Assembly: GCA_018663865.1 (NCBI GenBank) | Contig: JABJPM010000025.1 | Span: 9,024 to 73,023 of the forward strand | Length of the DNA stretch: 64,000 nucleotides | Reading direction: 5' to 3' | From: Candidatus Woesearchaeota archaeon | GTDB taxonomy: Archaea; Nanobdellota; Nanobdellia; SCGC-AAA011-G17; PNOQ01 | Shown here: piece by piece, positions 6,534 to 52,305 of the stretch | How the letters are laid out: every line of letters begins with the position of its first letter | Position numbering within the stretch: the stretch's first letter is position 1 | Position numbers and translations under genes: made by a program | The notes under the pieces: generated by a model | What the model was told of the DNA's origin: nothing | Databases searched by the model: none | What the model saw: only the letters and a program-made list of their open reading frames with translations

Positions 6534-6606
6534 TGGGGTAACGAGGATTTGAACCCCGATTCCGACGCCCCAAACGTCGAGTGCTACCAAGTTACACCAT
6601 TACCCC
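6534..6606 (-). tRNA. tRNA-Pro (anticodon UGG).
   Basis: I folded the cloverleaf manually on the minus strand. The acceptor stem GGGGTAA/TTACCCC is fully Watson-Crick, the anticodon stem is CGACG/CGTCG with loop TTTGGGG (UGG), the T-loop is TTCAAAT, and the discriminator is A. No CCA is encoded. Confidence 0.85.
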
Positions 6607-10943: not shown

Positions 10944-12167
10944 ATGGTGATATCTACTTTTATAGCCGCAAATACGGATTATGTAATGTTAATTTTATTT
11001 GCACTTGTGATGTCAGTAATTTTATATTTCAAAAGAAAGAATTTAGAAGTTCAAAAAATATTATTTCCTTTTTTATATTTAATTATGTACAAAACAAAAT
11101 GGGGCCTAACAAAAATGGATTCCATTGCAAAAAGACTTGAAAAACATAAAAATAAATTAAGTTATACTTCTATTATAGTGGGATTCACAGGAATGGCCAT
11201 TATGACCGCCTTGTTCCTAATGTCCGTTTACAAATATTTCTTTGTTGAACGAGCAGCAGTGGTGGCACCGTTATTGCCTGGATCAACAATACCAGGGATG
11301 CCAACATTATCTTTTGTACACTGGATAATTGCAATTTTCGTTTTAGCAACAGTTCATGAGTTTTCACATGGGATCTTTGCAAGGATGCATAAAATAAAAG
11401 TAAAATCCTCTGGATTCGCATTTATGGGAATAATACTCCCTATAATTCCTGCAGCATTCGTTGAACCGGATGAGGAACAAATGCAAAAGAAATCAAAAAA
11501 AGCACAACTATCTGTACTTTCAGCAGGAACATTTTCAAATTTCATTTTCGCAGGAATATTTTTCCTAATATTATCATTTGTATTAACTCCCATTTCTGGA
11601 GCAATAATGGAACCGCAAGGAGTCATGATTGCAGGTGTTTATGATGGCTCTCCAGCATTCGAAGCAGGAGTAAATGATGGGGAAATTATAGATTCTTATA
11701 ATGGTGTAAAAATAGATTCAACAGATCAATTATTTATAGAATTAAACAAGACGAGCCCATTTGAAAAAGTAGTTTTAGTAACAAAAGAAAATTCATATAA
11801 TGTCGTTCTTGGAGAACACCCAGAGGGTGAAGAAAGGGGTTATATGGGGATTGGATTAGCAAATAAATCTGGAGTAAAACAATCAATACTAGAAAATGTG
11901 GGAAAAATACCAATAAAAATATTTGCTTGGATTTCAGTCTTGATCTATTGGTTATTCTTGACAAATTTAATGGTGGGGCTAGTTAATTTATTGCCACTCG
12001 GAATAGTAGATGGTGGACAAATGTTCTATATCGCATTAGGTTCAATAATTAAAAATGAAAAAACAGTAAAATCCATTTTTGCAGTAGTAAGCATAGCGTT
12101 ATTATTATTATTATTATTCTTTTTACTTCCTGCAATGTGGGGATATTTCACATCACCATTCCAATAA
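10944..12167 (+). CDS. Site-2 protease (M50 family membrane zinc metalloprotease) with a PDZ domain.
   Basis: HEFSHGIFA (HExxH) lies in a transmembrane helix, a PDZ-like segment sits in the middle, and NLLPLGIVDGG (LDG motif) is present. 407 aa. Confidence 0.85.
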   Translation: MVISTFIAANTDYVMLILFALVMSVILYFKRKNLEVQKILFPFLYLIMYKTKWGLTKMDSIAKRLEKHKNKLSYTSIIVGFTGMAIMTALFLMSVYKYFFVERAAVVAPLLPGSTIPGMPTLSFVHWIIAIFVLATVHEFSHGIFARMHKIKVKSSGFAFMGIILPIIPAAFVEPDEEQMQKKSKKAQLSVLSAGTFSNFIFAGIFFLILSFVLTPISGAIMEPQGVMIAGVYDGSPAFEAGVNDGEIIDSYNGVKIDSTDQLFIELNKTSPFEKVVLVTKENSYNVVLGEHPEGEERGYMGIGLANKSGVKQSILENVGKIPIKIFAWISVLIYWLFLTNLMVGLVNLLPLGIVDGGQMFYIALGSIIKNEKTVKSIFAVVSIALLLLLLFFLLPAMWGYFTSPFQ

Positions 12168-18418: not shown

Positions 18419-18933
18419 TTTACGAACCAGCAGAAGATTCATACTTACTTCAAAAACAAGTAGAGAAATTTATAAAAAAAGAAATGGATGTTTTAGATAT
18501 TGGCACAGGATCAGGAATCCAAGCATTGACCGCAAAAAAACAAGGGGCAAATGTTATTGCAGCAGACATTAACTCAGAATGTGTAACTCACGTAAACAAA
18601 TTAGGAATAAAAACGCTACAATCGGATTTATTTGAAAATATAACTGGAAAATTTGATTTAATAATTTTCAATCCACCATACCTTCCAGAAGATGAAAGAG
18701 AGCCAGAAGATTCAAAACTAGTTACCACTGGTGGAAAAAAGGGTAATGAAATTCTTGCAAGATTTTTGGCAGGGGCAAAAGATTATTTGAAAGAAGATGG
18801 AAAAATTTTGATAGTATTCAGTTCATTAACTCCGGATGTAGATCAATTAGTGGAAGAGAATAAATTTACTTTTGAAAAAATTTCAGAACAAAAAATAGAT
18901 TTTGAAAAATTAATAGTTTATGAATTAACCTAG
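18415..18933 (+). CDS. HemK/Mtq2-like SAM-dependent methyltransferase (protein N5-glutamine methyltransferase family).
   Basis: VLDIGTGSGI (SAM motif I) and FNPPYLP (NPPY motif) are present. 172 aa, the size of archaeal Mtq2. Confidence 0.7.
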   Translation: MIYEPAEDSYLLQKQVEKFIKKEMDVLDIGTGSGIQALTAKKQGANVIAADINSECVTHVNKLGIKTLQSDLFENITGKFDLIIFNPPYLPEDEREPEDSKLVTTGGKKGNEILARFLAGAKDYLKEDGKILIVFSSLTPDVDQLVEENKFTFEKISEQKIDFEKLIVYELT

Positions 18934-19629
18934 TGGATAAACTTTTTTATCCATAATATCTTTAGAAATTTTAAAAGAATCAATCATCTCATTTTTTTCA
19001 ACAGGGAATTCACCAAATTCATCCAAATAATAAAATGGTTTACCAAATTTAATTTTCGCACTTTCAAATTTTGGCCACAAATTGTCTTTTTTCCCATTTA
19101 TTCGAATATTAACTGGAAAAATTTGAGGATTATCCAAATTAGAAACTAATCTTCCCAATCCAGGATATATCTTAGTCCCCACGCTATCCACCAGTTTAGA
19201 TTTTTGTCCACTATTGCCCTCTGGAAATATTAAAACATATTCATTCTTTTCTAAATAATTTCTGGATGGATCTATTATCCCATATTTTGACGCAGGAATT
19301 TGCTGTAATGCTTCAAGCAATCCCTTGCGCAGTCGATTTTTATAGTGTGCCTTCGAAACAATCGCGTGAAATTTTTGATCAGAATTTAAATATGCCGCAA
19401 TTAATAGTTGATCTACTGAATGTGTATGTAAAATAATTTTGCCCTCTTTATCTTTTTTATATATCCAATCTTCCTGAGGAGTATCATGATTGGAAACAAT
19501 GATTCCGCCCTTTTTATCATTAATTATATTTTCTAATCCCTCGATCTCAACATCATAATAATTTTCAAAAATAAAATTGCAGGCCCCACTAATGAAATCA
19601 TAATTCCAATTTCTTATTACATCCCTCAT
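18925..19629 (-). CDS. PlsC/LPLAT-family acyltransferase (1-acyl-sn-glycerol-3-phosphate acyltransferase-like).
   Basis: VSNHDTPQED (HxxxxD acyltransferase motif) and IFPEGNSG (FPEG motif) are present. 234 aa. Confidence 0.65.
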   Translation of the reverse strand: MRDVIRNWNYDFISGACNFIFENYYDVEIEGLENIINDKKGGIIVSNHDTPQEDWIYKKDKEGKIILHTHSVDQLLIAAYLNSDQKFHAIVSKAHYKNRLRKGLLEALQQIPASKYGIIDPSRNYLEKNEYVLIFPEGNSGQKSKLVDSVGTKIYPGLGRLVSNLDNPQIFPVNIRINGKKDNLWPKFESAKIKFGKPFYYLDEFGEFPVEKNEMIDSFKISKDIMDKKVYPLG

Positions 19630-19630
19630 T

Positions 19631-20320
19631 TTAAATTAAACTCTCCAACGTATGCACCTTTTCTTCCATAATATGTTTTGAGATTTCTATCATCTCTTTC
19701 CTACCAGGCTCATTAAAAAGATATTTTTCAATATTTTTCATATCTTTAAAAAAATAATAAGGTTCTCCTATTGAAACACTCGCTTTATTATAATCTGGGA
19801 TAATGAAGTTTCCGCCATCAATAGAATTCACATCTACCCTAACTGGAATAATTGGTTTTGTTGGAGAATCAATTACTAATTTTCCCAAACCAGGATAATA
19901 TTTTTTCCCATTTTGTTTTCGTTTCAAAATATTGCTACTCATCCCTTCCGGAAATATTGCGACACAATCATCTCTGCTCAAATACTCTTTTGCGAGTTTA
20001 AAACATTCCTTATTTATCTTAGAAGCAAAAGATCCTGGATTAACAGGGATTTGTTTAGTTTGATTTAAAACAAATCTTAAAGCAGGATTTCGATAAATTC
20101 CGCTATAAACAAAAAAGTGTAATGGGATATCAATTCCAAATGCAGAGCATACCAGTAGATGGTCTTTTGATCTCTCTCCTGCCCCAGAATGATTTATTGC
20201 AACAATGCCACCATCAATATTTTCTAGATTTTCTTGTCCAAAAACATTTATATCTACATGATGATTTATGTATTTATTACTTAAATTACATATGTTTTTA
20301 TACACTTTTGATGATTTCAT
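19631..20320 (-). CDS. PlsC/LPLAT-family acyltransferase, a tandem paralog of the previous gene.
   Basis: The INHSGAGERSKDH and IFPEGMSS motifs are present. 229 aa. It lies 2 nt from the upstream paralog. Confidence 0.65.
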   Translation of the reverse strand: MKSSKVYKNICNLSNKYINHHVDINVFGQENLENIDGGIVAINHSGAGERSKDHLLVCSAFGIDIPLHFFVYSGIYRNPALRFVLNQTKQIPVNPGSFASKINKECFKLAKEYLSRDDCVAIFPEGMSSNILKRKQNGKKYYPGLGKLVIDSPTKPIIPVRVDVNSIDGGNFIIPDYNKASVSIGEPYYFFKDMKNIEKYLFNEPGRKEMIEISKHIMEEKVHTLESLI

Positions 20321-23374: not shown

Positions 23375-23830
23375 ATGAATAATTTAATCTATGGCATAAT
23401 TTTAAGTGCATTGCCAATTGCAGAATTAAGAGGGGGAGTGCCACTTGCAATGTCCTCTGGTGCACCGATCTGGATGGTATTCATATTATGTGTTTTAGCA
23501 AATATTTTAATTATTCCAGTAGTATTTTTCTTTTTAGATTTTTTGCATGAGAGATTTATGGGCAGAAGATTTTACAGGGTTTTATTTTCAAAAATAGTAA
23601 ATAGGACAAGAAAGAAAATAGAGCACAGAATTGGGACAAAATGGGAATATCCAGCATTACTTTTATTGGTTGCAATCCCATTTCCAGGGACAGGGGCATA
23701 TGCCGGGTCTTTGGCAGCATGGCTGTTCAAATTAAATCGGAAAAAATCATTAATTACAATTGCATTGGGAGTTTTAATCGCAGGGGTATTGGTAACATTT
23801 GCATCATTAGGAATTTATTCTCTTATATAA
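23375..23830 (+). CDS. Putative small multidrug export protein family member (PF06695-like membrane protein).
   Basis: The N-terminal LPIAELRGGVPLA motif and about 4 transmembrane helices are present. 151 aa. Confidence 0.5.
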   Translation: MNNLIYGIILSALPIAELRGGVPLAMSSGAPIWMVFILCVLANILIIPVVFFFLDFLHERFMGRRFYRVLFSKIVNRTRKKIEHRIGTKWEYPALLLLVAIPFPGTGAYAGSLAAWLFKLNRKKSLITIALGVLIAGVLVTFASLGIYSLI

Positions 23831-24364
23831 TTCTTTAATATCCGAAATGAGGGGTATATTCTCCACTTTGAATTTTTTAACCAAATAAATCCATACTATT
23901 GCAACATAAACACCCGAAACAAAATTCCAAAAAATCATGTGTGTTTTTTCAAAAAGATCAGAACCAAATTCCATTAGAATAAAGATTAACAAATCAATTC
24001 TTAAAATATTCATTGCTAGAATTAATCCTGCCCCAATAAAAAACATTTTAAAACTTTCATTTAATGAAATTCCCCTAGTAAACAATATTAGGAATAATAG
24101 CAAAGAATATGCCATTCCGGCAACACATGCAGGAATTATATTGACCATATTTCCACCAATGAATATAGCATCATTGATCATATTAGCAGGATATCCCAAT
24201 TTAATAAAGAAGTAAGCAGGATATGCAGTTAAAGGGAAAATAATTTTATGGAAAAATCCATACAAATTAACAAAGAGGATGGCAAAGGCCAACCTCAGTA
24301 TAATATTCTTATAATATTTCATTGTTGTTGTTTGTTTTAACAAATTTATAAGCTTTAGTAACAC
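23807..24364 (-). CDS. Polytopic membrane protein, possibly an archaeosortase/exosortase-like transpeptidase.
   Basis: 185 aa with 5-6 transmembrane helices. A Cys lies in a transmembrane helix (IPACVAGM) and a later AMNILRID motif resembles the conserved Cys and N..R(I/V) of exosortase/archaeosortase. This is a weak, memory-based assignment. Confidence 0.3.
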   Translation of the reverse strand: MLLKLINLLKQTTTMKYYKNIILRLAFAILFVNLYGFFHKIIFPLTAYPAYFFIKLGYPANMINDAIFIGGNMVNIIPACVAGMAYSLLLFLILFTRGISLNESFKMFFIGAGLILAMNILRIDLLIFILMEFGSDLFEKTHMIFWNFVSGVYVAIVWIYLVKKFKVENIPLISDIKELYKRINS

Positions 24365-24426
24365 TTATAAAGCGATTTACAACTCCAGAAGTGTAACAAA
24401 ATCATGATTTTGGAGGATATACAAAA

Positions 24427-26076
24427 ATGAATAAAAAATTATCAATTATTGGAATGTTATTAATATTAGTTTTCTCAGCTGGGGCAGCGATAATACCTGG
24501 CACGATGGATACAACTTTAAATCCTGGAGAAGAATTCAATGGAGCATTTACAATAAATAATACACATGGTACAAATTTAACAAATATCACATTCGAATTA
24601 AATGTTTTCAATGGAGTTATTGTAGAGGCATTCACACCAAGCCTAATAGAACAATTAAATAATTCAGAAATTAGTGATGAAATAACTTTCAAGTTTACAG
24701 TTCCAGCAGGAACTGAACAAAACAATTATACTGGGACATATTCATACTCTGCTGATCAATTAAATTCAACACAATTTGAATCTTTCAATTTCACAGTTAA
24801 TGAAGTCAAAGATATTGCTATTGATTTCAATCAAGCAAATCTTAATGATTTATTGCCGGGGGAAAGTAGAAATACTACTTTGGTAATAACTAACACTGGA
24901 AATGTGGATTTAACAAATATATCTATTTCACACGATTTAACAGATTTCATGGATGCGGGCGATAATCAAATAGATATTAATTTTTCAGAAGAAAATGGAT
25001 TTGATTTATTGGTAAATTCCCAAGCAAAGGAAATAATTGTTACAGTAACAACACATACAAATCAGTATTTCTATCCTGAAGAAACAAATGATTATTCTGG
25101 GCCTATAACTATTGCTAGTGCAGAATATACTGAAAGTTTCAATTTAAACGTAGATTTAGAGATGATGGCATTTAAGAATATAGAGATAACAAATTTAGGG
25201 GATTTTGAAGATTTAATTCCTGGAGAGGAATTCGATATAGAAATTGAATTTGATTATGCAAAATTTGATATTGACGATATAGAAGTTGAAATGGTAATTT
25301 CAGATTTTGATGCCGGAGATGATCTAGAAATGGATTCAGATGAATTCAATATGGATCATAAAGAGGATTATGAGTTAGAATTCAGTTTAGGAGTTCCCCT
25401 AGATGTAAATGATGACAGATATGGGATTTTACTAAATATCAATGGTGATTCAGATTCTGATGATGAATTAGATGAGGATTTCGAATATAATGTATATTAT
25501 GGGCGGGCCATAGATGTAAAAAAAGATGAAAATTATGATGCAGGATTTAATTTTGTAAGATTGGAGCCTGAACTGCCAATGTGTGGGGGATCATTCACTT
25601 TAACTGCAGAGGTAATCAACACTGGAGAAAAACGATTAAATGATATGTATATCAAGTTAAAGATTAATGAATTAGATATTTTGGAAATCTCTGAAGAATT
25701 CGATCTAAAAATAACCGAAAATAACAGAGACGAAAAAGTTGAATTTTTCATAAATCTTCCAACTGGAATGGAAGCTAAAGAATACGATATCGAAATAATC
25801 GCTTATGATGAAGATAATGACATAATTGGAAGTGAAATAGTAACATTCACTCCATATGGAAACTGTGTTCAAGTTGAAGCTGAACAAGAAGAATCATCTG
25901 AAGAACCTTCTAGTGCAGATTCACCCGAAGGGACACTTTTCATGCCAACAGGATGGTCCGTAGGTAATTTCTTAGGAAATGATACTGCAAAAACATCATT
26001 TTGGGTTATTGGAGATTTAGCTTTAATAGTGATAATAACTTATTTCCTTTTTCTTTTCTTTAAGAAAAGGAAATAA
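24427..26076 (+). CDS. Secreted, highly acidic cell-surface protein with a C-terminal transmembrane anchor and basic tail.
   Basis: 549 aa with an N-terminal signal peptide (MNKKLSIIGMLLILVFSAGAA), a D/E-rich repetitive beta-rich body with N-glycosylation sequons, and a C-terminus ...FWVIGDLALIVIITYFLFLFFKKRK. Confidence 0.6.
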   Translation: MNKKLSIIGMLLILVFSAGAAIIPGTMDTTLNPGEEFNGAFTINNTHGTNLTNITFELNVFNGVIVEAFTPSLIEQLNNSEISDEITFKFTVPAGTEQNNYTGTYSYSADQLNSTQFESFNFTVNEVKDIAIDFNQANLNDLLPGESRNTTLVITNTGNVDLTNISISHDLTDFMDAGDNQIDINFSEENGFDLLVNSQAKEIIVTVTTHTNQYFYPEETNDYSGPITIASAEYTESFNLNVDLEMMAFKNIEITNLGDFEDLIPGEEFDIEIEFDYAKFDIDDIEVEMVISDFDAGDDLEMDSDEFNMDHKEDYELEFSLGVPLDVNDDRYGILLNINGDSDSDDELDEDFEYNVYYGRAIDVKKDENYDAGFNFVRLEPELPMCGGSFTLTAEVINTGEKRLNDMYIKLKINELDILEISEEFDLKITENNRDEKVEFFINLPTGMEAKEYDIEIIAYDEDNDIIGSEIVTFTPYGNCVQVEAEQEESSEEPSSADSPEGTLFMPTGWSVGNFLGNDTAKTSFWVIGDLALIVIITYFLFLFFKKRK

Positions 26077-26126
26077 TCTTTTTTTTATTTAGTTAGTTTT
26101 ATATATTTCTTAGACAATTAATCCCT

Positions 26127-26888
26127 ATGGAAAAAAGAGAAGAGGGAAAGGTAATTATTGAATTAAAAAACGTTTGTAAATATTATCGAATGGGGGATAA
26201 TATTGTAAAAGCAGTTGATAATGTTTCTTTGATGATTAAACGTGGAGATTTTGTAGCAATAATGGGGCCATCAGGTTCAGGAAAATCAACGATGATGAAC
26301 CTAATTGGAAGTTTAGATGTTCCAACAAGGGGAAAAATATTTTTAGACCAGCACGATATTTCCACATTGACAGAATCAGAGCTTGCGCAAATAAGGGGAA
26401 AAAAAATTGGATTCATATTTCAATCTTTCAATCTAATTAATAATTTGACAGCAAAGGAAAATGTAATGATTCCAATGCTATTTCAAAATAATTTAAAAGA
26501 TGAGAAAAATTTTAGGGCAACCAAATTAATGGAGTTGGTAGGTCTAAAAGATAGGATGCATCACACTCCAAATGAGTTATCAGGTGGGCAACAACAAAGA
26601 GTTGCTATTGCCAGGTCATTGGCAAATTCTCCAGAGGTAATACTTGCAGATGAACCAACAGGAAATTTAGATACAAAAACGGGTGCATCGGTAATGGAAT
26701 TTTTAGAAAATTTAAATAAAAAAGGAAAAACAATTATTATGGTTACACACGATCCAGATTTAGCAAAAGATCATGCAGATATAATTTTCTGGTTAAAAGA
26801 TGGAAAAGTAGAAAAGATAACTGGGAAAAAAGATGGATGGAGTAAGTTAGGAAAAGAAAGATTAAAAGAGTTGAAGGAGAATAAGTAG
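26127..26888 (+). CDS. ABC transporter ATP-binding protein, MacB/LolD-like.
   Basis: Walker A GPSGSGKST, signature LSGGQQQRVAIARSL and Walker B ILADEPTGNLD. Confidence 0.9.
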   Translation: MEKREEGKVIIELKNVCKYYRMGDNIVKAVDNVSLMIKRGDFVAIMGPSGSGKSTMMNLIGSLDVPTRGKIFLDQHDISTLTESELAQIRGKKIGFIFQSFNLINNLTAKENVMIPMLFQNNLKDEKNFRATKLMELVGLKDRMHHTPNELSGGQQQRVAIARSLANSPEVILADEPTGNLDTKTGASVMEFLENLNKKGKTIIMVTHDPDLAKDHADIIFWLKDGKVEKITGKKDGWSKLGKERLKELKENK

Positions 26889-28112
26889 ATGATATCTGAT
26901 CTTTTCTCTTTAGCATCTAAAAATATCAAACGCAGAGGTTTGAGATCATGGTTAACATTATTAGGAATTTTTATAGGAGTTACTGCAGTAGTAGCATTAA
27001 TATCATTAGGAAATATTTTGCAATTAGCAGTTTCAAGTCAGTTAGGTTTGGATACTAATGAGTTCATAACAGTCCAGGCTGGAGGCCTGAGTGGATATGG
27101 CCCACCCGGGAGCAATGTTGTAGATCCTCTGCGGGAAGATGATGCAAATGCTATCGAGAGGTTGGGCAGTGCAAAAAATACCATAAAAAGAAATATGGTT
27201 TCTACAAAAATAGAATTTAATGAAATAATTGATTATAAGTATGCTGGGAGTCTCCCAAATAATAAAAAAGATTTAGACTTAGTTTATGCTCAACTTGGTT
27301 TGGATATTTTCGAAGGAAGATTGATGAGCCCTTCAGATTCTGGAAAAATAATTTTAGGATATAATTTTTATAATAAAAAAGAAAATTGGGGCGGAAAACA
27401 AATCACTCCCGGAAAAACAGTTTATGTAAATGATGAAAAATTTCAAGTAATTGGAATATTAACAAAAGAGGGCAGTTTAATCAAGGACAATATGGTTCTA
27501 ATGAATGAAGATGATATGGGTGATATCTTTGATTATGGGGACGAGGTAGATGTAATAGTTGTTGAACCAGAAAACAAAGATAAAATACAAAAAACCAAGG
27601 AAGATATTGAAGAATTACTTAGAAAAAGGAGAGGAGTAAAAAAAGGGGAAGAAGATTTCGAGGTAAGTACTCCAGAAGCAACACTTTCAACAGTTAACAA
27701 TCTTCTAAAAGGGGTCCAAATTTTCATAGCAATAATTGCATTAATTTCAGTATTTATTGGGGCAATTGGAATTGTTAATACTATGACTACTTCTGTATTG
27801 GAAAGAAAAAGAGAGATTGGAGTAATGAAGTCTGTTGGAGCAAAAAATAAACATATATTCTTACAATTTTTTATCGAATCAAGTTTACTGGGATTAGTTG
27901 GGGGTGTAGCAGGGGTATTGTTTGGAACATTAATAGGATTCGCTGGTGCGATAGCAATGAATAATTTTGCAGGGACAGAAGTAACTCCAGAAATAAATTT
28001 AATTTTAATATTATCAGTACTGGCTGGAAGTTTTCTAATTGGGGGAATTGCAGGAATAATCCCCGCATTAAATGCAGCTAAACAAAATCCAGTGGAGGCA
28101 TTAAGGTCATGA
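26889..28112 (+). CDS. ABC transporter permease, FtsX/MacB type with a large extracytoplasmic domain.
   Basis: 407 aa with an N-terminal transmembrane helix, a roughly 230-aa external domain and a C-terminal FtsX 3-transmembrane bundle. The start overlaps the ATPase stop. Confidence 0.8.
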   Translation: MISDLFSLASKNIKRRGLRSWLTLLGIFIGVTAVVALISLGNILQLAVSSQLGLDTNEFITVQAGGLSGYGPPGSNVVDPLREDDANAIERLGSAKNTIKRNMVSTKIEFNEIIDYKYAGSLPNNKKDLDLVYAQLGLDIFEGRLMSPSDSGKIILGYNFYNKKENWGGKQITPGKTVYVNDEKFQVIGILTKEGSLIKDNMVLMNEDDMGDIFDYGDEVDVIVVEPENKDKIQKTKEDIEELLRKRRGVKKGEEDFEVSTPEATLSTVNNLLKGVQIFIAIIALISVFIGAIGIVNTMTTSVLERKREIGVMKSVGAKNKHIFLQFFIESSLLGLVGGVAGVLFGTLIGFAGAIAMNNFAGTEVTPEINLILILSVLAGSFLIGGIAGIIPALNAAKQNPVEALRS

Positions 28113-29314
28113 TAAATAAAGAAAGCATGAATTATTCTCTGAGAAATTTGAATAAAAATAAGGGGAGGAGCCTCCTAACAATTTTTTCAATACTAGTCGG
28201 AATAACAACAATTTTCATATTTATTAGCTTTGGATATGGATTATATGATTATACAAATGAATTAACCTCTGGTTCATCTGCAGACAAAGTATTAATCATA
28301 CCAAAAACCGCAGGAGGATTTGGGGCCCCAGATGAAATAATTTTAAATGAAGATGATGTAGATGAAATTAAAAAATCAACCGATGTATTGGATGCAACTG
28401 GATTATATTATGATGCAGTCTTAGTTAAACAAAATAGTGACCAAAAGTATACATTCATAATTGGATATGATCCAAAAAAAGATTTTGTTATGGAATCTTT
28501 CAATATTGGTGCAGACGAAGGAAGGATGTTGAAATCAGGCGACATGGGGAAAGTTGTTTTGGGCCACAATTATAAAATTAAAAATAAAATTTTCGATAAA
28601 GCTTACGAACTAAATGATAATATAGAATTAAATGGAATCGATTTAAAAGTAGTCGGATTCATGGAAGAAATTGGAAATCCCCAAGATGATTCTCAATTAT
28701 ACATAAGTGATAGCCAATTTGAAGAATTATTCACGGATGTAAACTCCTATGGCCAAATAATTGCGAAAGTGGATATCAGCGAATTAGAGAAGGTCATAAA
28801 AAGTATAGAACATAATTTAAGAAAATCTAGAGATTTAGAAGAAGGAAAAGAAGATTTCTATGTGCAATCATATGATGATCTAATTGAATCATTTACCGGG
28901 GCACTAAATATAATAGTAATATTTATAATTTTCATAGCATTAATTTCAGTAATAGTATCTACGATAAATACTGCAAACACAATGATAACTTCTGTTTTAG
29001 AAAGATACAAGGAAATCGGAGTGTTAAAAGCAATGGGTGCAAAAAACAATAATATTTTTGAAATATTTTTATTTGAAAGTTCACTATTGGGCACAATTGC
29101 AGGAGTATTTGGAGTAATCTTCGGATGGGCAATTTCTTATACATTCGGAGTTATATTGGATAACATGGGGTGGGGATTTTTAAGTCCACATTTTTCAATA
29201 TATTTATTTGGAGGGCTGATATTATTCTCGGGTATAACTGGGGCGATCTCGGGTGTTTTTCCTGCAATCCAAGCAGCAAAAACAAATCCAGTAGATGCAT
29301 TGCGAACGGAATAG
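28109..29314 (+). CDS. ABC transporter permease, FtsX/MacB type, the second paralog.
   Basis: 401 aa with the same architecture. It overlaps the previous gene by 4 nt. Confidence 0.8.
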   Translation: MINKESMNYSLRNLNKNKGRSLLTIFSILVGITTIFIFISFGYGLYDYTNELTSGSSADKVLIIPKTAGGFGAPDEIILNEDDVDEIKKSTDVLDATGLYYDAVLVKQNSDQKYTFIIGYDPKKDFVMESFNIGADEGRMLKSGDMGKVVLGHNYKIKNKIFDKAYELNDNIELNGIDLKVVGFMEEIGNPQDDSQLYISDSQFEELFTDVNSYGQIIAKVDISELEKVIKSIEHNLRKSRDLEEGKEDFYVQSYDDLIESFTGALNIIVIFIIFIALISVIVSTINTANTMITSVLERYKEIGVLKAMGAKNNNIFEIFLFESSLLGTIAGVFGVIFGWAISYTFGVILDNMGWGFLSPHFSIYLFGGLILFSGITGAISGVFPAIQAAKTNPVDALRTE

Positions 29315-29355
29315 GTAAAGTTTATATAGTAAAAATGCAACAAAATACATAAAAG

Positions 29356-30237
29356 ATGGTGAATAAAAAAATAATAATAAGTTTATTAATTTTAGTAATC
29401 TTGCCAATGTTATCGGTAGATGCAAAGGCAGAGTGCAATATCAATTCAAATTTAATTTACCAGGATCCTCATCCAGCTTTGCCAGGAGATTATGTTGAAG
29501 TATTGTTTCAAATTTCCGGGGTAAGTAGTGGGTGCGAAGATGGCGCATCAATAGATTTAATTTATGATTATCCATTTTCATTAGATGGAAAATCAAGTAA
29601 AAAGAATTTGAATGCAAATACCTATGTTGGGTATAATTATGGATCAAATTGGAACGTAGTATATAATTTAAGAATTGATGAAAATGCAATTAAGGGAGAC
29701 TACGAATTAGAATTAAGGTATAAGGAAGGAGCAAATGCAAGTTGGAATAATTACGGATTTGATAATTTCAATATAACCATTGAAGATGGGAGAACTGATT
29801 TCGAAATCCACATACAAGATCATAATATTTTAGAAAGGAATATTGTTTTTGAAGTTCTAAATATTGGGGATCAAGATATAGAGGCTCTAACTTTAGAGAT
29901 TCCTAAACAAGAAAATATAGAAATAAAGGGTTCAAATAGAAACATCGTTGGTGACTTGGATTCAAATGAATATACTACTGCAGATTTTGAGGCAATTCCC
30001 GCAGATGGAGAAATTTTAGTAAGATTATATTATACTGATTCTACAAATGAAAGAAGAATGATAACAAAAACTGTTGTATACGATTCGACTTATTTTCTAG
30101 GTGCATTAGAAAATGTAGCGGAAGATAAAACTTTAACATACTTTATTATTGCAGCTGTAATGTTGGGAATAGGATTAATTTTCTTAAGGAAACGCAAATT
30201 AAAAAATCATAAAAAAAGAAAAAAATTCGAAATTTAA
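29356..30237 (+). CDS. Secreted surface protein with a C-terminal transmembrane anchor and polybasic tail.
   Basis: 293 aa with a signal peptide (MVNKKIIISLLILVILPMLSVDAKA) and a C-terminus ...YFIIAAVMLGIGLIFLRKRKLKNHKKRKKFEI. Confidence 0.55.
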   Translation: MVNKKIIISLLILVILPMLSVDAKAECNINSNLIYQDPHPALPGDYVEVLFQISGVSSGCEDGASIDLIYDYPFSLDGKSSKKNLNANTYVGYNYGSNWNVVYNLRIDENAIKGDYELELRYKEGANASWNNYGFDNFNITIEDGRTDFEIHIQDHNILERNIVFEVLNIGDQDIEALTLEIPKQENIEIKGSNRNIVGDLDSNEYTTADFEAIPADGEILVRLYYTDSTNERRMITKTVVYDSTYFLGALENVAEDKTLTYFIIAAVMLGIGLIFLRKRKLKNHKKRKKFEI

Positions 30238-30282: not shown

Positions 30283-30354
30283 AGCGCACGCCCGGACTCG
30301 AACCGGGGATCAGAGGGTTGCAGCCTCTTGCCTTAGCCGCTTGGCTACGCACGC
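30283..30354 (-). tRNA. tRNA-Cys (anticodon GCA).
   Basis: Manual fold of the minus strand. The anticodon stem is AGAGG/CCTCT with loop CTGCAAC (GCA), the T-loop is TTCGAGT, and the discriminator is U. The acceptor stem has two G-U pairs. Confidence 0.75.
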
Positions 30355-30404: not shown

Positions 30405-30480
30405 CGGGCGCGAAGGGATTTGAACCCTCGACCCCTAGCTTAGAAGGCTAGTGCTCTAATCCAAGCTGAGCTACGCACCC
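30405..30480 (-). tRNA. tRNA-Arg (anticodon UCU).
   Basis: Manual fold. The acceptor stem is GGGTGCG/CGCGCCC, the D-arm is GCTC...GAGC, the anticodon stem is CTAGC/GCTAG with loop CTTCTAA (UCU), the T-loop is TTCAAAT, and the discriminator is G. Confidence 0.8.
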
Positions 30481-41521: not shown

Positions 41522-43435
41522 ATGATAAAAAGATTAATTTTGATTATATTTATATTATTAATCATGCCCTTAACTTTTGCACAGCAAGAAAATTACAATG
41601 ATCGTACAGGATTAATAATTAATTACGATTCACATGGTGAAATTATTTTAGAGGGGCAATCAGGATTTAATTCTTTAACAACTACATTAAATTTAAACCC
41701 ATTAGAATCTCCAAGGCAAATAGTAAAATCCCTTTCGACAGATCCCGAACATTATTTAGATGAAGAAAATTTAGTTTTTGAGTGGGGAACATTTCAAAAT
41801 CCTTTTTCATATAATGTGAATTCTCAGATAGAGACAAAAAATAATCTTTACCCGGTCAAACATATACAATTCCCAATACAAAATTTAGAATCAAAATATG
41901 AAAAATATCTGGATGCAGGGGAGATAATTGATATAACTCCAGAAATTGTAAATAAGGCATCAGAAATAGTTAGCGGAGAAACAGACCTTTATTCTGCAGT
42001 ATTCAAGATCTCAGAATGGGTAAATGCGAATATAGAGTATAATCTTTCATCAACAACTGCTGATGCGGCATTACAATCTTCATGGGTATTGGATTCTCGA
42101 GAGGGCGTTTGCGATGAGATCTCATCGCTATTCATTTCATTGTCTAGGTCAGTGGGAATTCCAGCAAGATTCATTTCAGGATTTGCTTATTCAAACTTAA
42201 ATTACGATTTTGAAAATCATGGGTGGGCAGAAGTTTATTTTCCTGGAGAAGGATGGGTACCATATGATATTACTTTTGAACAATTTGGCTGGTTAGATCC
42301 CACTCACATAGCGTTGGACAAATCGATTGATTCGGGGGAGGCCTCAGTAAGATATACTTGGAGGGCAACAAATACAGAATTAGAATCTTCTTCATTTGAA
42401 GATGAAAAAACAATAGTTAGCACTGGGGAAAAAGTAGACAATCCATTCAATTTCGAAATTGAGCCATTATTTTATGAGGTGCAGCAGGGAAGTCATGTTC
42501 CAGTGAAAGTAACAATGAAAAATCCATTTGAAAATAAATATGTTTCAAATACAATAACAATCACAAAGGGGCCGACAATAATAGAAAACAATAGAAAACA
42601 AATTTTATTGAAACCGGGTCAAGAGGGGACGGTTTACTGGATAATGAGGGTTCCAAGCAATCTAAGTAAAAATTTGATATATACTGCAGAATTAGAAGCA
42701 AAAGATTTATTTGAAAAAAGAAAGTCCTCTCAAATTAAATTTGGAGATTCATTTGATTTTATTTCCGAGCAGGAAGCAAATGAATTGGTGGAAAGTTTAC
42801 TAGAAAAAGAAGATAGAAAATATTCGGAAGAATTATCTATCTCTTGCGAATCAGAAAAAGAATATTATTATGACTTTGAAGAAATAAACATACTTTGCGA
42901 TGTAAAAAATCTTGGAAACACGTTGCTAAAAAACACAAAAATATGTTTGGACACAAATTGTAAAAATATGGACTTAAAAATTGGTGTAAAAGAGACACTA
43001 ACATTTAGCAATGTAGAAAAGAAAGATCCAATATTAATTACTGCAAAAGTAAATGAAATTGATTTACTAACTGAGATAGGTGTAAAAATATTTTCAGAAC
43101 CCGATGTAAAGATTCTCGGGCTAAGCTATCCAAAACAAATTGAATATGGTAAAAATTTCAACATCACTTTCACAATAACTTCAATAGCAAAAGTAGAAAA
43201 TTTAAATATAAAATTGAATAATAAGGATCCATCAAATTTAAAAAAAGATTCATTATCTGAATCAGTAGTTATGGTTGCAAATTCAAAAGATTTTCTTTCT
43301 GGAGAAATATTCCTAAAATTAGATTATACTGATGAATATGGAAATGAATTTTTTCAAAAAAGGAATTCAGAAATAACAATAACTGCACTACCTTGGTATG
43401 CGAAAATAATTAGTATTTTCTATAATTTATTTTAA
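41522..43435 (+). CDS. Secreted transglutaminase-like (Cys protease fold) protein.
   Basis: A signal peptide is present. The core GVCDEISSLFISLSRSVGIPARFISGF...HGWAEVYFPGEGWVPYDIT gives a Cys-His-Asp transglutaminase-like triad context. 637 aa. Confidence 0.7.
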   Translation: MIKRLILIIFILLIMPLTFAQQENYNDRTGLIINYDSHGEIILEGQSGFNSLTTTLNLNPLESPRQIVKSLSTDPEHYLDEENLVFEWGTFQNPFSYNVNSQIETKNNLYPVKHIQFPIQNLESKYEKYLDAGEIIDITPEIVNKASEIVSGETDLYSAVFKISEWVNANIEYNLSSTTADAALQSSWVLDSREGVCDEISSLFISLSRSVGIPARFISGFAYSNLNYDFENHGWAEVYFPGEGWVPYDITFEQFGWLDPTHIALDKSIDSGEASVRYTWRATNTELESSSFEDEKTIVSTGEKVDNPFNFEIEPLFYEVQQGSHVPVKVTMKNPFENKYVSNTITITKGPTIIENNRKQILLKPGQEGTVYWIMRVPSNLSKNLIYTAELEAKDLFEKRKSSQIKFGDSFDFISEQEANELVESLLEKEDRKYSEELSISCESEKEYYYDFEEINILCDVKNLGNTLLKNTKICLDTNCKNMDLKIGVKETLTFSNVEKKDPILITAKVNEIDLLTEIGVKIFSEPDVKILGLSYPKQIEYGKNFNITFTITSIAKVENLNIKLNNKDPSNLKKDSLSESVVMVANSKDFLSGEIFLKLDYTDEYGNEFFQKRNSEITITALPWYAKIISIFYNLF

Positions 43436-45464: not shown

Positions 45465-45538
45465 TGGCACCGCCCGAATTTGAATCGGGGTTATAAGGCC
45501 CCCAGCCTTATGTGATAACCAAGCTACACTACGGCACC
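45465..45538 (-). tRNA. tRNA-Pro (anticodon GGG).
   Basis: Manual fold. The anticodon stem is TAAGG/CCTTA with loop CTGGGGG (GGG), the T-arm is CCCGA-TTCAAAT-TCGGG, the acceptor stem is GGTGCCG/CGGTGCC, and the discriminator is A. Confidence 0.75.
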
Positions 45539-45551
45539 AAATAAAAAAAAG

Positions 45552-45625
45552 CGGCCTCGAGGGGATTTGAACCCCTATCTACCGGGCCGAAACCGATGGC
45601 TCTATCCAAATTAAGCTACAAGGCC
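45552..45625 (-). tRNA. tRNA-Arg (anticodon UCG).
   Basis: Manual fold. The acceptor stem is GGCCTTG/CGAGGCC, the anticodon stem is ATCGG/CCGGT with loop TTTCGGC (UCG), the T-arm is AGGGG-TTCAAAT-CCCCT, and the discriminator is G. Confidence 0.75.
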
Positions 45626-52230: not shown

Positions 52231-52305
52231 GCCCCGGTGGCTCAGTCTGGTTAGAGCACATGGCTGTTAACCATGGGGTCGCAAGTTCAAATCTTGCCCG
52301 GGGCG
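52231..52305 (+). tRNA. tRNA-Asn (anticodon GUU).
   Basis: Fully canonical cloverleaf. The acceptor stem is GCCCCGG/CCGGGGC, the D-arm is GCTC-AGTCTGGTTA-GAGC, the anticodon stem is CATGG/CCATG with loop CTGTTAA, the T-arm is GCAAG-TTCAAAT-CTTGC, and the discriminator is G. Confidence 0.9.

What the first reader, a model, noticed from the sequence alone, without database searches (positions are those of the whole stretch)
23807..30237. Surface-protein island: an archaeosortase-like membrane protein next to C-terminally anchored acidic secreted proteins and a MacB/FtsX-type ABC exporter
A 185-aa polytopic protein has Cys-in-transmembrane and N..R(I) motifs reminiscent of exosortase/archaeosortase. 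It is transcribed divergently from a 549-aa secreted, extremely acidic protein. That protein ends in a hydrophobic helix plus KKRK, a tripartite arrangement typical of sortase-type sorting signals. Downstream lie an ABC ATPase, two FtsX-type permeases with large external domains, and a second secreted protein that also ends in a transmembrane helix plus a polybasic tail (293 aa). The locus may represent a dedicated cell-surface protein processing and export module. The two C-termini share no obvious PGF- or PEF-like tripeptide, so a new signal class is possible. Alternatively they are ordinary type-I anchors.
Basis: partly seen in the sequence, partly recalled or inferred. Interest (0 to 1): 0.55.

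Follow-up and report, generated by a model that had tools for sequence, protein, structure and literature searches.

The report
Archaeosortase with its dedicated surface protein
A small DPANN-type archaeon encodes an archaeosortase-family membrane enzyme next to the one acidic surface protein it most likely trims and anchors; NCBI's protein-family library already lists this pairing, though nobody has studied it experimentally, and the ABC-transporter genes next door are a separate module.

Summary
The "185-aa" protein (probably 171 aa, starting at Met15) matches NCBIfam NF033505 "pacearchaeosortase" at 129 bits (cutoff 80) and the exosortase/archaeosortase signature TIGR04178 at 37 bits (cutoff 23). 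Cys80, Arg122 and His142 are invariant in 80 distinct relatives.

The divergently transcribed 549-aa protein (pI 4.05) is a divergent relative of the paired model NF033506 "PACE-CTERM-PROT, putative S-layer protein" (106 bits, cutoff 110). In 37 of 45 loci with enough flanking DNA, a signal-bearing protein lies near the enzyme, and in 34 of these at most one gene separates them. Its C-terminus is more conserved than its ectodomain, so this looks like a one-enzyme, one-substrate sorting pair.

The ABC ATPase, the two MacB/FtsX permeases and the 293-aa protein form a different module. The 293-aa family lies near such permeases in 63 of 80 independent loci but near an archaeosortase in only 6. 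It lacks the sorting signal and its anchor is poorly conserved.

The "integrated processing-and-export island" does not. The "new signal class" is a clade variant of a signal that is already curated but unpublished. Cleavage and lipid anchoring are inferred by analogy with Haloferax ArtA.

The parts
23807..24322 (-). Pacearchaeosortase gene. It is 171 aa from the ATG at 24320-24322; the mechanical ORF extends to a GTG at 24364, giving 185 aa. Residues below use the 185-aa numbering.
   Evidence: NF033505 at 129.4 bits (cutoff 80) and TIGR04178 at 37 bits (cutoff 23). All homologs start at Met15. AlphaFold2 model is an all-helical membrane bundle with a short beta-hairpin loop, pLDDT 81.
24125..24127 (-). 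Codon of Cys80, the putative catalytic nucleophile, in the motif I-P-A-C-V-A-G at the start of a hydrophobic helix.
   Evidence: Invariant in 80 of 80 distinct family members. Coordinates verified.
23999..24001 (-). Codon of Arg122 in the N119-x-x-R122-I motif. It lies 42 residues after the Cys; ArtA Cys173 to Arg214 is 41.
   Evidence: Asn119 and Arg122 are invariant in 80 of 80. ArtA residues from PMC9263693.
23939..23941 (-). Codon of His142, the third member of the family's suspected Cys/Arg/His triad.
   Evidence: Invariant in 80 of 80. The triad is as stated in Haft 2023, doi 10.1101/2023.06.07.544157.
24323..24426 (.). Divergent intergenic region with TATA-like elements (TTTATAA, CTTATAAAG) and a GGAGGA ribosome-binding site 8 nt before the ATG of the 549-aa gene.
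   Evidence: Read directly from the sequence. The promoter assignment is inferred.
24427..26076 (+). Cognate substrate, 549 aa: a secreted, very acidic protein of about four beta-sandwich domains (putative S-layer or surface protein). It is a divergent relative of PACE-CTERM-PROT.
   Evidence: NF033506 at 106.4 bits (cutoff 110), covering model positions 7-458 of 627. pI 4.05, 11 N-x-S/T sequons. AlphaFold2 model is all-beta, pLDDT 70. Foldseek finds Ig-like/macroglobulin-type arrays.
24427..24489 (+). Sec-type signal peptide, residues 1 to about 21 (MNKK, a hydrophobic core, then SAGAA).
   Evidence: Hydropathy peak at residues 5-23. The feature is conserved in all family neighbours. The cleavage site is inferred.
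25939..25956 (+). Upstream box F505-M-P-T-G-W510 in the disordered acidic linker. It is clade-specific and a candidate part of the recognition or cleavage site.
   Evidence: P507, T508 and G509 are invariant in alignment A2. (F/Y)(L/M)PTG(W/F) occurs in 9 of 10 clade members. A TG dipeptide occurs in 27 of 52 family members against a 16% background.
25999..26073 (+). C-terminal sorting helix plus tail: F525-W-V-I-G-D-L-A-L-I-V-I-I-T-Y-F-L-F-L-F-F-K-K-R-K549.
   Evidence: Clade HMM E=5e-31 and family HMM E=4e-17; it is the only hit among 363 window ORFs. Family consensus is W-x-I-G-x-x-N...R-x-x-R-R. The last 30 residues are more conserved than the ectodomain.
26077..26126 (+). Spacer after the substrate gene: an oligo-T run (TCTTTTTTTTATTT) and a TATA-like TTTATATATTT ahead of the ABC gene. 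This fits separate transcription units.
   Evidence: Read directly from the sequence. Weak evidence in a 31% GC genome.
26127..26888 (+). ABC ATPase of the MacB/LolD/FtsE type. It belongs to a separate neighbouring module, not to the sorting system.
   Evidence: PF00005 at 123 bits. Best NCBIfam similarities are MacB, LolD and FtsE, all below equivalog cutoffs. Absent next to most family archaeosortases.
26889..28112 (+). Permease 1: MacB periplasmic core domain plus FtsX domain, four hydrophobic helices.
   Evidence: PF12704 at 73 bits and PF02687 at 79.5 bits. Hydropathy.
28109..29314 (+). Permease 2: MacB_PCD plus FtsX. It overlaps permease 1 by 4 nt, suggesting a LolC/LolE-like heterodimer.
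   Evidence: PF12704 at 66.7 bits and PF02687 at 70.9 bits.
29356..30237 (+). A 293-aa secreted, membrane-anchored protein of a CARDB-type family. It is a conserved partner of MacB/FtsX ABC modules and not an archaeosortase substrate.
   Evidence: 1087 cluster representatives at E<=1e-3. 13 of 34 homologs hit CARDB. Near permeases in 63 of 80 loci and near an archaeosortase in 6 of 80. No signal-HMM hit. Anchor 28% identical against 52% for the ectodomain.

Best explanation
The locus holds two independent modules that happen to be neighbours in this lineage.

Module 1 (23807-26076) is a dedicated one-enzyme, one-substrate protein-sorting pair of the kind NCBIfam calls pacearchaeosortase / PACE-CTERM protein.

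Proposed mechanism:
1. The 549-aa acidic, four-beta-sandwich protein is exported through Sec using its N-terminal signal peptide.
2. It is held transiently in the membrane by its C-terminal helix, with KKRK on the cytoplasmic side.
3. The small polytopic archaeosortase (Cys80/Arg122/His142) recognises the conserved start of that helix (F-W-x-x-G-D/N). It may also recognise the upstream F-L-P-T-G-W box.
4. The enzyme cleaves off the helix through a thioacyl intermediate.
5. By analogy with Haloferax ArtA, it transfers the protein to a membrane lipid, leaving a lipid-anchored surface (S-layer-like) protein.

Shown here: family membership of the enzyme, invariance of the triad, conserved adjacency, a single signal-bearing protein per locus, and a conserved C-terminal signal. 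Inferred: cleavage, the cleavage site, lipid attachment, and the S-layer role.

Module 2 (26127-30237) is a LolCDE/MacB-like type VII ABC system: one ATPase, two different MacB_PCD-FtsX permeases and a conserved CARDB-type membrane-anchored partner. It is widespread in related archaea without any archaeosortase. Its substrate is unknown.
For: Enzyme: NF033505 at 129.4 bits (cutoff 80) and TIGR04178 at 37 bits (cutoff 23). Cys80, Asn119, Arg122 and His142 are invariant in 80 distinct relatives of 29-75% identity. The Cys-to-Arg spacing is 42 residues, against 41 in ArtA. The family's suspected triad is Cys/Arg/His. The AlphaFold2 model is a helical membrane bundle, pLDDT 81.

Substrate: NF033506 at 106 bits over the N-terminal two-thirds. 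Neighbours in Pacearchaeota loci are full-length NF033506 members at 279-760 bits, and their enzymes score 183-220 bits on NF033505.

Pairing: in 37 of 45 loci with at least 3.5 kb of flank, a signal-bearing protein lies near the enzyme. In 34 of those, 0-1 genes intervene. This holds in both tandem and divergent orientation. 65 of 84 loci have exactly one such protein. In the 64-kb window only the 549-aa protein matches the signal HMMs.

Signal: the last 30 residues are more conserved than the ectodomain (36% against 27%, higher in 69% of pairs). The 293-aa control family shows the opposite (28% against 52%, higher in 1% of pairs). This meets Haft's criterion for dedicated systems, namely adjacency of enzyme and target.

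Separate ABC module: ABC/permease/293-aa genes accompany the archaeosortase only in the nearest clade. 293-aa homologs lie near MacB/FtsX permeases in 63 of 80 loci, in several arrangements, but near an archaeosortase in 6 of 80. In L001/L002 the permeases have decayed while the enzyme/substrate pair is intact. In L003/L007 three genes separate the substrate gene from the ABC genes. An oligo-T run and a TATA-like element lie between the substrate gene and the ABC gene.
Against: There is no experimental evidence for any pacearchaeosortase, and no paper in the searchable library mentions the family.

The substrate scores just below NF033506's cutoff. Its C-terminal third, including the signal, is not matched by that model.

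The helix Asn typical of the family signal is replaced here: Ala at that position and Asp two residues earlier.

No equivalent of ArtA's essential Arg253 could be identified.

Only 64 kb of the genome is visible, so further substrates elsewhere cannot be excluded. One unrelated 172-aa protein in L131 carries the same signal.

DPANN archaea are generally thought to have limited lipid biosynthesis (background knowledge). No PssA/PssD-like genes occur in the window. The lipid-attachment step is therefore the weakest inference.

Synteny of the ABC module with the pair persists within the clade down to about 46% enzyme identity, so a clade-specific functional link is not excluded.
Confidence: 0.75

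Rival explanations
1. One reading: all six genes form one dedicated module for processing and exporting surface proteins. The MacB/FtsX ABC system exports or extracts the two C-terminally anchored proteins, and the archaeosortase processes both.
For: The five plus-strand genes are tightly packed and co-directional: gaps of 50, 0, -4 and 41 nt. The order substrate, ABC, permease, permease, 293-aa is kept in the window's clade (L006, L011, L012, L086, L088-L091, L094). Both flanking proteins have a signal peptide plus a C-terminal helix and basic tail.
Against: Most family archaeosortase loci have no ABC, permease or 293-aa genes nearby. 74 of 80 loci with a 293-aa homolog have no archaeosortase within about 7 kb, while 63 of 80 have MacB/FtsX permeases. 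The 293-aa protein does not match the sorting-signal HMMs. Its family has a different, poorly conserved anchor with a long variable tail. The permeases have decayed in L001/L002 while the enzyme/substrate pair is intact. The flanking ribosomal-protein and LeuRS genes are equally syntenic in the clade, so the shared order may simply reflect relatedness.
Confidence: 0.1
2. The C-terminus of the 549-aa protein is an ordinary permanent type-I membrane anchor. The archaeosortase homolog acts on something else or is inactive, and the adjacency is only conserved synteny.
For: No PGF, PEP or VPXXXP motif is present. The substrate falls below the NF033506 cutoff and the model's C-terminal part is not matched. 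Hydrophobic helices are compositionally similar, which inflates apparent conservation.
Against: Adjacency persists across enzymes as low as 29% identical and in two different gene orientations. Specific non-hydrophobic positions (W, G, N or D) are conserved at the start of the helix. The C-terminus is more conserved than the ectodomain, whereas the 293-aa control family, also a helix plus basic tail, shows the opposite. The catalytic triad is invariant, which argues against an inactive enzyme. No other candidate substrate occurs in the loci.
Confidence: 0.07
3. Same pair, different chemistry. The enzyme is a simple endopeptidase (a sheddase or maturase) that releases the surface protein from its helix so it can join a non-covalently attached layer or be secreted. 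There is no lipid transpeptidation.
For: Whether archaeosortases are one-step transpeptidases is unresolved even for ArtA. ArtA substrates need PssA/PssD-dependent lipid chemistry (PMC9263693), and no such genes are in the window. DPANN archaea are generally thought to have reduced lipid biosynthesis (background knowledge).
Against: The Cys/Arg/His triad matches that of transpeptidating sortases. A released, extremely acidic protein (pI 4.05) would need some other way to stay on the cell. Only 64 kb of the genome was examined, so lipid-pathway genes may lie elsewhere.
Confidence: 0.2

Closest known systems
Pacearchaeosortase (NCBIfam NF033505) with PACE-CTERM-PROT 'putative S-layer protein' (NF033506)
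   Same: The enzyme scores above the curated cutoff (129 against 80 bits). It has the same minimal size of about 170 aa and the same invariant Cys/Arg/His, Asn119, Trp146, Trp158 and C-terminal I-P-x-x-x-D motif. Its neighbour is a secreted 520-700-aa beta-sandwich protein ending in a helix plus a basic tail. The host lineage is DPANN.
   Different: The window's clade (MAGs labelled Woesearchaeota) is a divergent branch. The substrate matches only model positions about 7-458 of 627 and falls at or below the cutoff (no hit to 158 bits, against 279-760 bits in Pacearchaeota). The genes are divergent rather than tandem. The signal reads F-W-x-x-G-[D/N]-x-[A/V]-L...Y-F...KKRK with an extra F-L-P-T-G-W box, instead of W-x-I-G-x-x-N...R-x-x-R-R. 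The family has no publication in the searchable library.
Haloferax volcanii archaeosortase A (ArtA) with PGF-CTERM substrates, including the S-layer glycoprotein
   Same: Same superfamily signature (TIGR04178). Conserved Cys and Arg with the same spacing (42 against 41 residues). Tripartite C-terminal signal. The substrate is a major acidic surface protein with N-glycosylation sequons. The motif lies at the start of the helix.
   Different: ArtA is roughly twice the size (my recollection, not checked here). It serves several substrates, nine in H. volcanii, spread around the genome. Its signal is PGF. Arg253 is essential in ArtA, and no equivalent was found here. ArtA's cleavage and lipid attachment have been shown experimentally; here they are only inferred.
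Dedicated one-to-one C-terminal sorting systems, for example JDVT-CTERM with its adjacent myxosortase-type protease (Haft 2023)
   Same: One target per genome or locus, encoded next to its processing enzyme. Conserved residues inside the transmembrane helix point to recognition within the membrane.
   Different: The enzyme family is unrelated: a CPBP/Rce1-like glutamic protease there, a Cys-based archaeosortase here. The signature motif also differs.
Sortase A with the LPXTG signal
   Same: Cys/His/Arg chemistry and a tripartite signal. In the window's clade a P-T-G box lies upstream of the helix and is separated from it by a spacer (14 residues between Trp510 and Phe525), as LPXTG signals are.
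   Different: The fold and the membrane topology are unrelated. There is no peptidoglycan acceptor in archaea. The LPXTG anchor model TIGR01167 did not hit the 549-aa protein, and it hit the 293-aa protein only below its cutoff. The resemblance of the P-T-G box may be coincidental.
LolCDE / MacB / FtsEX type VII ABC systems (for the neighbouring module)
   Same: A separate ATPase plus two different permeases, each with one N-terminal helix, a large external MacB_PCD domain and a three-helix FtsX domain.
   Different: All equivalog models (MacB, LolC/E, FtsX, DevC) score far below their cutoffs. The host is an archaeon with no outer membrane. The conserved partner is a CARDB-type type-I membrane protein, not a MacA-like adaptor or a hydrolase activator.

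Membership tests
Exosortase/archaeosortase superfamily (TIGR04178 signature) | Signature-domain HMM above the curated cutoff | tested here: met
   37.0 bits against a cutoff of 23, residues 74-161. Pfam gave no hit on this protein at E<=0.1, although homologs P0012-P0014 carry a precomputed PF09721 hit.
Exosortase/archaeosortase superfamily (TIGR04178 signature) | Near-invariant Cys, Arg and His (the suspected catalytic triad) | tested here: met
   Cys80, Arg122 and His142 are each present in 80 of 80 distinct relatives. The triad definition comes from Haft 2023.
Exosortase/archaeosortase superfamily (TIGR04178 signature) | Polytopic integral membrane protein with the Cys at the start of a transmembrane helix | tested here: met
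   Four hydropathy peaks. The AlphaFold2 model has long helices at 2-33, 35-55, 83-94, 101-133 and 135-164, with Cys80 at the start of a helix. The orientation, with Cys and His at the outer face, is inferred from the positive-inside rule only.
Exosortase/archaeosortase superfamily (TIGR04178 signature) | Second essential Arg (ArtA Arg253) | tested here: inconclusive
   There is no invariant Arg about 39 residues after Arg122. The nearest basic positions are 163 (72% K/R) and 166 (88% K/R). An invariant Arg24 lies in the first helix. No direct alignment to ArtA was made.
Exosortase/archaeosortase superfamily (TIGR04178 signature) | Endopeptidase or transpeptidase activity on the C-terminal signal | not testable with these tools
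   This needs biochemistry or proteomics. No solved homolog was found in the PDB by sequence or by fold.
Pacearchaeosortase (NF033505) | Family HMM above the curated cutoff | tested here: met
   129.4 bits against a cutoff of 80, covering model positions 3-166 of 167. Pacearchaeota relatives score 183-220 bits and clade member L012 scores 148 bits.
Pacearchaeosortase (NF033505) | Encoded next to its putative target protein (a dedicated system) | tested here: met
   Here the target is the immediate divergent neighbour, 104 bp away. Family-wide, 37 of 45 well-flanked loci have a target nearby, and 34 of those have 0-1 intervening genes.
PACE-CTERM-PROT putative S-layer protein (NF033506), for the 549-aa protein | Family HMM above the curated cutoff, full length | tested here: not met
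   106.4 bits against a cutoff of 110, and only model positions 7-458 of 627 align. Other clade members range from no hit to 158 bits. It is homologous but a divergent branch, and NCBI's pipeline would probably leave it unnamed. Homolog P0019 is called 'hypothetical protein'.
PACE-CTERM-PROT putative S-layer protein (NF033506), for the 549-aa protein | Tripartite C-terminal signal: signature motif, hydrophobic helix, basic cluster | tested here: met
   F-W-V-I-G-D, then a hydrophobic stretch, then KKRK. An HMM built here from family C-termini gives E=4e-17. The W and G positions are shared with the family consensus; the helix Asn is replaced.
PACE-CTERM-PROT putative S-layer protein (NF033506), for the 549-aa protein | Actually forms an S-layer | not testable with these tools
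   The model shows about four beta-sandwich domains. Foldseek finds only generic Ig-like/macroglobulin arrays with TM-score about 0.2. That is compatible with an S-layer subunit but not diagnostic.
PGF-CTERM / PEP-CTERM / VPXXXP-CTERM signals | Family-specific signature tripeptide or motif abutting the helix | tested here: not met
   NCBIfam gave no hit to these domain models for either protein. No such motif is seen in the C-termini.
MacB / LolCDE / FtsEX type VII ABC transporters (neighbouring module) | ABC ATPase plus permease(s) with a MacB_PCD external domain and an FtsX transmembrane domain | tested here: met
   PF00005 at 123 bits; PF12704 at 73 and 67 bits; PF02687 at 79.5 and 71 bits.
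MacB / LolCDE / FtsEX type VII ABC transporters (neighbouring module) | Equivalog-level match to MacB, LolC/E, LolD, FtsE/X or DevA/C | tested here: not met
   All scores are far below the curated cutoffs, for example MacB 123 against 966 bits, lolCE 58 against 362, FtsX 54 against 255.
CARDB-domain surface proteins (for the 293-aa protein) | Pfam CARDB (PF07705) match | tested here: inconclusive
   The window protein itself has no Pfam hit at E<=0.01. 13 of 34 homologs match CARDB (best E=6e-12) and 6 of 34 match NPCBM_assoc. Membership therefore rests on transitive homology.
LPXTG sortase substrates (for the 293-aa protein) | LPXTG anchor domain model above its cutoff | tested here: not met
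   TIGR01167 scores 14.6 bits against a cutoff of 15.9, and the match covers only the helix plus basic tail. There is no LPXTG motif.

The most novel reading that the evidence does not exclude
The window's Woesearchaeota-like clade uses a distinct, modular, two-part sorting signal. A P-T-G-W box (F-L-P-T-G-W) is separated by a short spacer (14 residues in the window protein) from an F-W-x-x-G-D helix and a KKRK-type tail. The enzyme and the signal have co-evolved through polar contacts inside the membrane: enzyme Asn93 with a helix Asn in Pacearchaeota, against enzyme Asn147 with a helix Asp here. If the P-T-G box is the cleavage site, this would be an archaeosortase signal with an LPXTG-like spaced layout, unlike all described exosortase/archaeosortase signals, whose motif abuts the helix. 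The 549-aa protein would then be the lipid-anchored S-layer subunit of a DPANN lineage whose envelope is uncharacterised.
Probability: 0.2. Interest if true: 0.55.

Novelty: new member of a known kind. Interest (0 to 1): 0.3.

Why it matters
Published reviews place archaeosortases in 'a subset of Euryarchaeota' and report 'limited to no information' on S-layers of Woese- and Pacearchaeota. This locus, with the 80 related loci analysed here, shows that DPANN archaea with very small genomes keep a minimal (about 170 aa) archaeosortase tied to a single surface protein.

That gives a concrete candidate for the main envelope protein of these uncultured episymbionts. It also offers a compact enzyme/substrate pair for studying archaeosortase specificity and chemistry.

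For annotation, three practical points follow:
- The enzyme's start codon should be moved to Met15.
- The curated substrate model misses the window's clade.
- The adjacent ABC/CARDB genes should not be annotated as part of the sorting system.

The finding does not reveal a new kind of system.

Tried and rejected
- Pfam on the 185-aa protein gave no hit at E<=0.1. Only NCBIfam/TIGRFAM models recognise it.
- Searching the 5.8-billion-protein index with the 55-aa C-terminal signal alone, to find unrelated passengers, failed because too few 5-residue words were shared.
- A PDB sequence search with the enzyme profile found nothing.
- The AlphaFold database library was not available.
- hhalign of the 293-aa protein against the 549-aa family found no relationship (probability 0.7%). 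The idea that they are paralogous substrates was dropped.
- A recurring protein of about 580-600 aa upstream of 293-aa homologs was suspected to be a distant equivalent of the substrate. It is a translation-factor GTPase (GHVDHGKTS motif) and irrelevant.
- The first attempt to fetch 293-aa loci failed because the 34-sequence alignment was too diverse. A tighter alignment worked.
- Literature searches for a described link between CARDB proteins and MacB/FtsX transporters in archaea found nothing specific.
- 'Genomic island' in the mobile-element sense was rejected. GC content is uniform at 0.29-0.36, and the neighbours are housekeeping genes that are syntenic in relatives.

Full report
**1. What is in the sequence**

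The window has a uniform 29-36% GC. It carries archaeal ribosomal proteins L1, P0 and P1 upstream of the locus and LeuRS downstream, and the rest is housekeeping genes. The locus is therefore not a mobile island.

The closest relatives of its proteins come from MAGs labelled Woesearchaeota, Pacearchaeota or Nanoarchaeota, which are DPANN archaea.

The 185-aa ORF begins at a GTG inside the A/T-rich divergent intergenic region. All 11 aligned homologs start at the residue equivalent to Met15 (MKYY...). The gene is therefore most likely 23807-24322, encoding 171 aa.

**2. The small membrane protein is an archaeosortase**

- Pfam gives no hit.
- NCBIfam gives NF033505 'pacearchaeosortase' at 129.4 bits (cutoff 80, E=1.4e-37) over essentially the whole model. 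The superfamily signature TIGR04178 scores 37 bits (cutoff 23).
- A scan of one genome per GTDB species found 144 relatives. I analysed 80 loci.
- In 80 distinct enzyme sequences of 29-75% identity, Cys80 (I-P-A-C-x-A-G), Asn119, Arg122 (N-x-x-R-I) and His142 are invariant. So are Arg24, Thr46, Trp146, Trp158, Pro171 and Asp175.
- The family's suspected catalytic triad is Cys/Arg/His (Haft 2023).
- ArtA mutagenesis showed Cys173, Arg214 and Arg253 to be critical (PMC9263693). The Cys-to-Arg spacing here (42 residues) matches ArtA (41).
- I could not find an equivalent of Arg253.
- An AlphaFold2 model (pLDDT 81, pTM 0.72) is a helical membrane bundle with a short beta-hairpin loop before the Cys helix.
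- No solved homolog exists in the PDB by sequence or by fold (generic helical bundles only).

**3. The 549-aa protein is its cognate substrate**

Properties of the protein:
- It has an N-terminal signal peptide, pI 4.05, 20.4% Asp+Glu and 11 N-x-S/T sequons.
- Its C-terminal helix is followed by KKRK.
- It matches NF033506 'PACE-CTERM-PROT, putative S-layer protein' at 106.4 bits, just under the cutoff of 110, and only over model positions 7-458 of 627.

Evidence for the pairing:
- In Pacearchaeota loci, the equivalent neighbour is a full-length NF033506 member (279-760 bits) beside an enzyme scoring 183-220 bits on NF033505.
- In 45 distinct loci with at least 3.5 kb on both sides of the enzyme, 37 have a signal-bearing protein of at least 300 aa nearby. 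In 34 of those, 0 or 1 genes intervene.
- The arrangement is mostly tandem (28 loci) but divergent in the window's clade (8 loci).
- Several of the 8 misses are explained by runs of N or by longer tails.
- HMMs of the C-terminal segment find one such protein per locus in 65 of 84 loci. They find only the 549-aa protein among all 363 stop-to-stop ORFs of the window.

This fits the published criterion for a dedicated one-to-one sorting system, in which enzyme and target are encoded by adjacent genes.

**4. The sorting signal**

Across 54 distinct neighbours the consensus is [G/D]-N-x-x-[Y/L/F]-[L/I/F]-W-x-I-G-x-x-N, then hydrophobic residues, then R-x-x-R-R. Counts are W 42/54 (plus Y 9), G 34/54 (plus A 10) and N 34/54.

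The window's clade has a variant: F-W-[V/I]-x-G-[D/N]-x-[A/V]-L...Y-F...KKRK. In the window protein, 14 residues upstream of this helix in a disordered acidic linker, lies a conserved (F/Y)-(L/M)-P-T-G-(W/F) box.

The last 30 residues are more conserved than the ectodomain: 36% against 27% mean pairwise identity, and higher in 69% of pairs. In the 293-aa family, which also ends in a helix plus a basic tail, the anchor is much less conserved than the ectodomain: 28% against 52%, and higher in only 1% of pairs. The first behaves like a recognition element and the second like a generic anchor.

Three further leads, none of them proven:
- A 'T-G' dipeptide occurs 15-25 residues upstream of the helix in 27 of 52 proteins, against a 16% background.
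- In L018 the P-T-G box directly abuts the F-W helix start.
- Polar residues co-vary between clades. In the Pacearchaeota clade the enzyme has Asn93 and the substrate helix has Asn. In the window's clade the enzyme has Ile93 and Asn147 and the substrate helix has Asp. This is a single evolutionary split.

**5. What the substrate looks like**

The AlphaFold2 model was built from only 6 sequences (pLDDT 70, pTM 0.48). It shows about four beta-sandwich domains (roughly 30-125, 130-245, 249-365, 372-475). These are followed by a low-confidence acidic linker (pLDDT below 50 over 482-527) and a terminal helix modelled at 519-548.

Foldseek against the PDB returns arrays of Ig-like or macroglobulin-type domains (complement C3, A2ML1, hydin-like proteins). 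Probabilities are high but global TM-scores are only about 0.2. This fits an S-layer subunit or an adhesin and proves neither.

**6. The ABC genes and the 293-aa protein are a different module**

- The ATPase (PF00005) and the two permeases (MacB_PCD plus FtsX each) form a LolCDE/MacB-like type VII ABC system. All equivalog models score far below their cutoffs.
- Among archaeosortase loci, these genes appear only in the window's nearest clade.
- The 293-aa family is large: 1087 cluster representatives at E<=1e-3. 13 of 34 sampled members match CARDB.
- In 80 metagenome loci centred on 293-aa homologs, MacB/FtsX permeases are nearby in 63, in co-directional, convergent and divergent arrangements. 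An ABC ATPase is nearby in 34. An archaeosortase is nearby in only 6, all from the window's clade.
- The 293-aa protein shows no relationship to the 549-aa family (hhalign) and no match to the signal HMMs. It has its own C-terminal pattern with a long variable tail.
- In L001/L002 the permeases have decayed to a 120-aa fragment while the enzyme/substrate pair is intact. In L003/L007 three other genes separate the substrate gene from the ABC genes.
- In the window, an oligo-T run and a TATA-like element lie between the substrate gene and the ABC gene. This is weak evidence in such AT-rich DNA.

**7. Mechanism**

Shown here:
- the enzyme's family membership;
- an invariant triad;
- conserved adjacency with one signal-bearing protein per locus;
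- a conserved C-terminal signal.

Inferred by analogy with ArtA/PGF-CTERM:
- Sec export;
- transient anchoring by the C-terminal helix;
- recognition of the helix start within the membrane;
- cleavage through a Cys80 thioacyl intermediate;
- transfer to a lipid.

The lipid step is the least certain. No PssA/PssD-like genes lie in the window. Whether archaeosortases are true transpeptidases is unresolved even for ArtA. A simple 'sheddase' role remains a live alternative.

**8. Comparison with what is known, and novelty**

The enzyme is a bona fide member of a family that NCBIfam already curates. However, no paper in the searchable library mentions 'pacearchaeosortase' or 'PACE-CTERM' (0 of 110 archaeosortase papers). 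Reviews still describe archaeosortases as euryarchaeal and DPANN S-layers as unknown.

The window adds a divergent sub-branch with a divergent gene arrangement, a substrate below the curated cutoff and a variant, possibly two-part, signal. I classify it as a new member of a known kind. Interest is modest (0.3).

The 'integrated processing-and-export island' is not supported. The 'new signal class' is at most a clade variant.

Noticed in passing
L131:5210-5728 (+) (metagenome contig Ga0272443_10001110): A small 172-aa secreted protein, not detected as a homolog of the 549-aa family by phmmer, ends in ...LGTGWTTSFNVIFEEQESGTSFTWIVLGLILVVLILGIVIFVLIRRRR. This is the same two-box C-terminal signal as the window's 549-aa protein (clade HMM E=4e-6). 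It lies two genes upstream of a 293-aa homolog, with no archaeosortase in the 14.7 kb held. It suggests the signal is modular and can sit on other passengers.
   Followed up: partly
window 25939-25956 and L018 (443-aa neighbour, C-terminus): The P-T-G box is separated from the F-W helix by a 14-residue spacer in the window protein (spacers of similar length across its clade). In L018 it abuts the helix directly (...DGIPTGFWIALDVII...). The spaced form may have arisen by insertion or duplication.
   Followed up: partly
window 24086-24088 (enzyme residue 93), 23924-23926 (residue 147) and 26014-26016 (substrate Asp530): Polar residues in membrane helices co-vary between clades. Pacearchaeota-type enzymes have Asn93 (40 of 45) and their substrates a helix Asn. 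The window's clade has Ile93 and Asn147 (9 of 10), and its substrates have Asp or Asn right after the conserved Gly. This is one evolutionary split only.
   Followed up: partly
window 23807-23860 (enzyme residues about 165-185): The family has a strongly conserved cytoplasmic C-terminal motif, F-K-I-K-x-I-P-x-Y-S-D-x-K-x-L, with Pro171 and Asp175 invariant in 80 of 80. It folds as a separate terminal helix in the model. Its function is unknown; it may be a partner-binding element.
   Followed up: no
window 58748-59701 (+): A 317-aa bacterial-type sigma-70 homolog in an archaeal genome: Pfam Sigma70_r2 and r4 above their cutoffs, and RpoD/SigA-like at 172 bits in NCBIfam but below equivalog cutoffs. 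Already reported as prevalent in Woesearchaeota (Castelle et al. 2021, PMC8204110).
   Followed up: yes
window 18925-19629 (-) and 19631-20320 (-): Two tandem PlsC-type acyltransferase genes (PF01553), a bacterial-type lipid acyltransferase family, next to the ribosomal protein cluster of an archaeon. One copy is syntenic in relative L001.
   Followed up: no
L001:6392-7478 and L002:964-2050: In a close relative the two permease genes are reduced to a single 120-aa MacB_PCD fragment. The 293-aa homolog has lost its signal-peptide region (239-248 aa). The archaeosortase/substrate pair remains intact, so the ABC module decays independently.
   Followed up: partly
L034 (JAHYJW010000002.1, 147 kb contig): A contig deposited as 'Patescibacteria group bacterium' carries a pacearchaeosortase (213 bits on NF033505) and a Pacearchaeota-type gene neighbourhood. 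It is probably an archaeal contig mis-binned into, or mislabelled as, a bacterial MAG.
   Followed up: no
window 30283-30354 (-) and 30405-30480 (-): Two tRNA genes lie immediately downstream of the 293-aa gene and mark the end of the co-directional cluster. Four more tRNAs are at 6534-6606, 45465-45538, 45552-45625 and 52231-52305.
   Followed up: no
window 41522-43435 (+) and 10944-12167 (+): A 637-aa transglutaminase-core protein and an M50 site-2 protease with a PDZ domain. Both could be envelope-related enzymes, but neither is adjacent to the locus.
   Followed up: no
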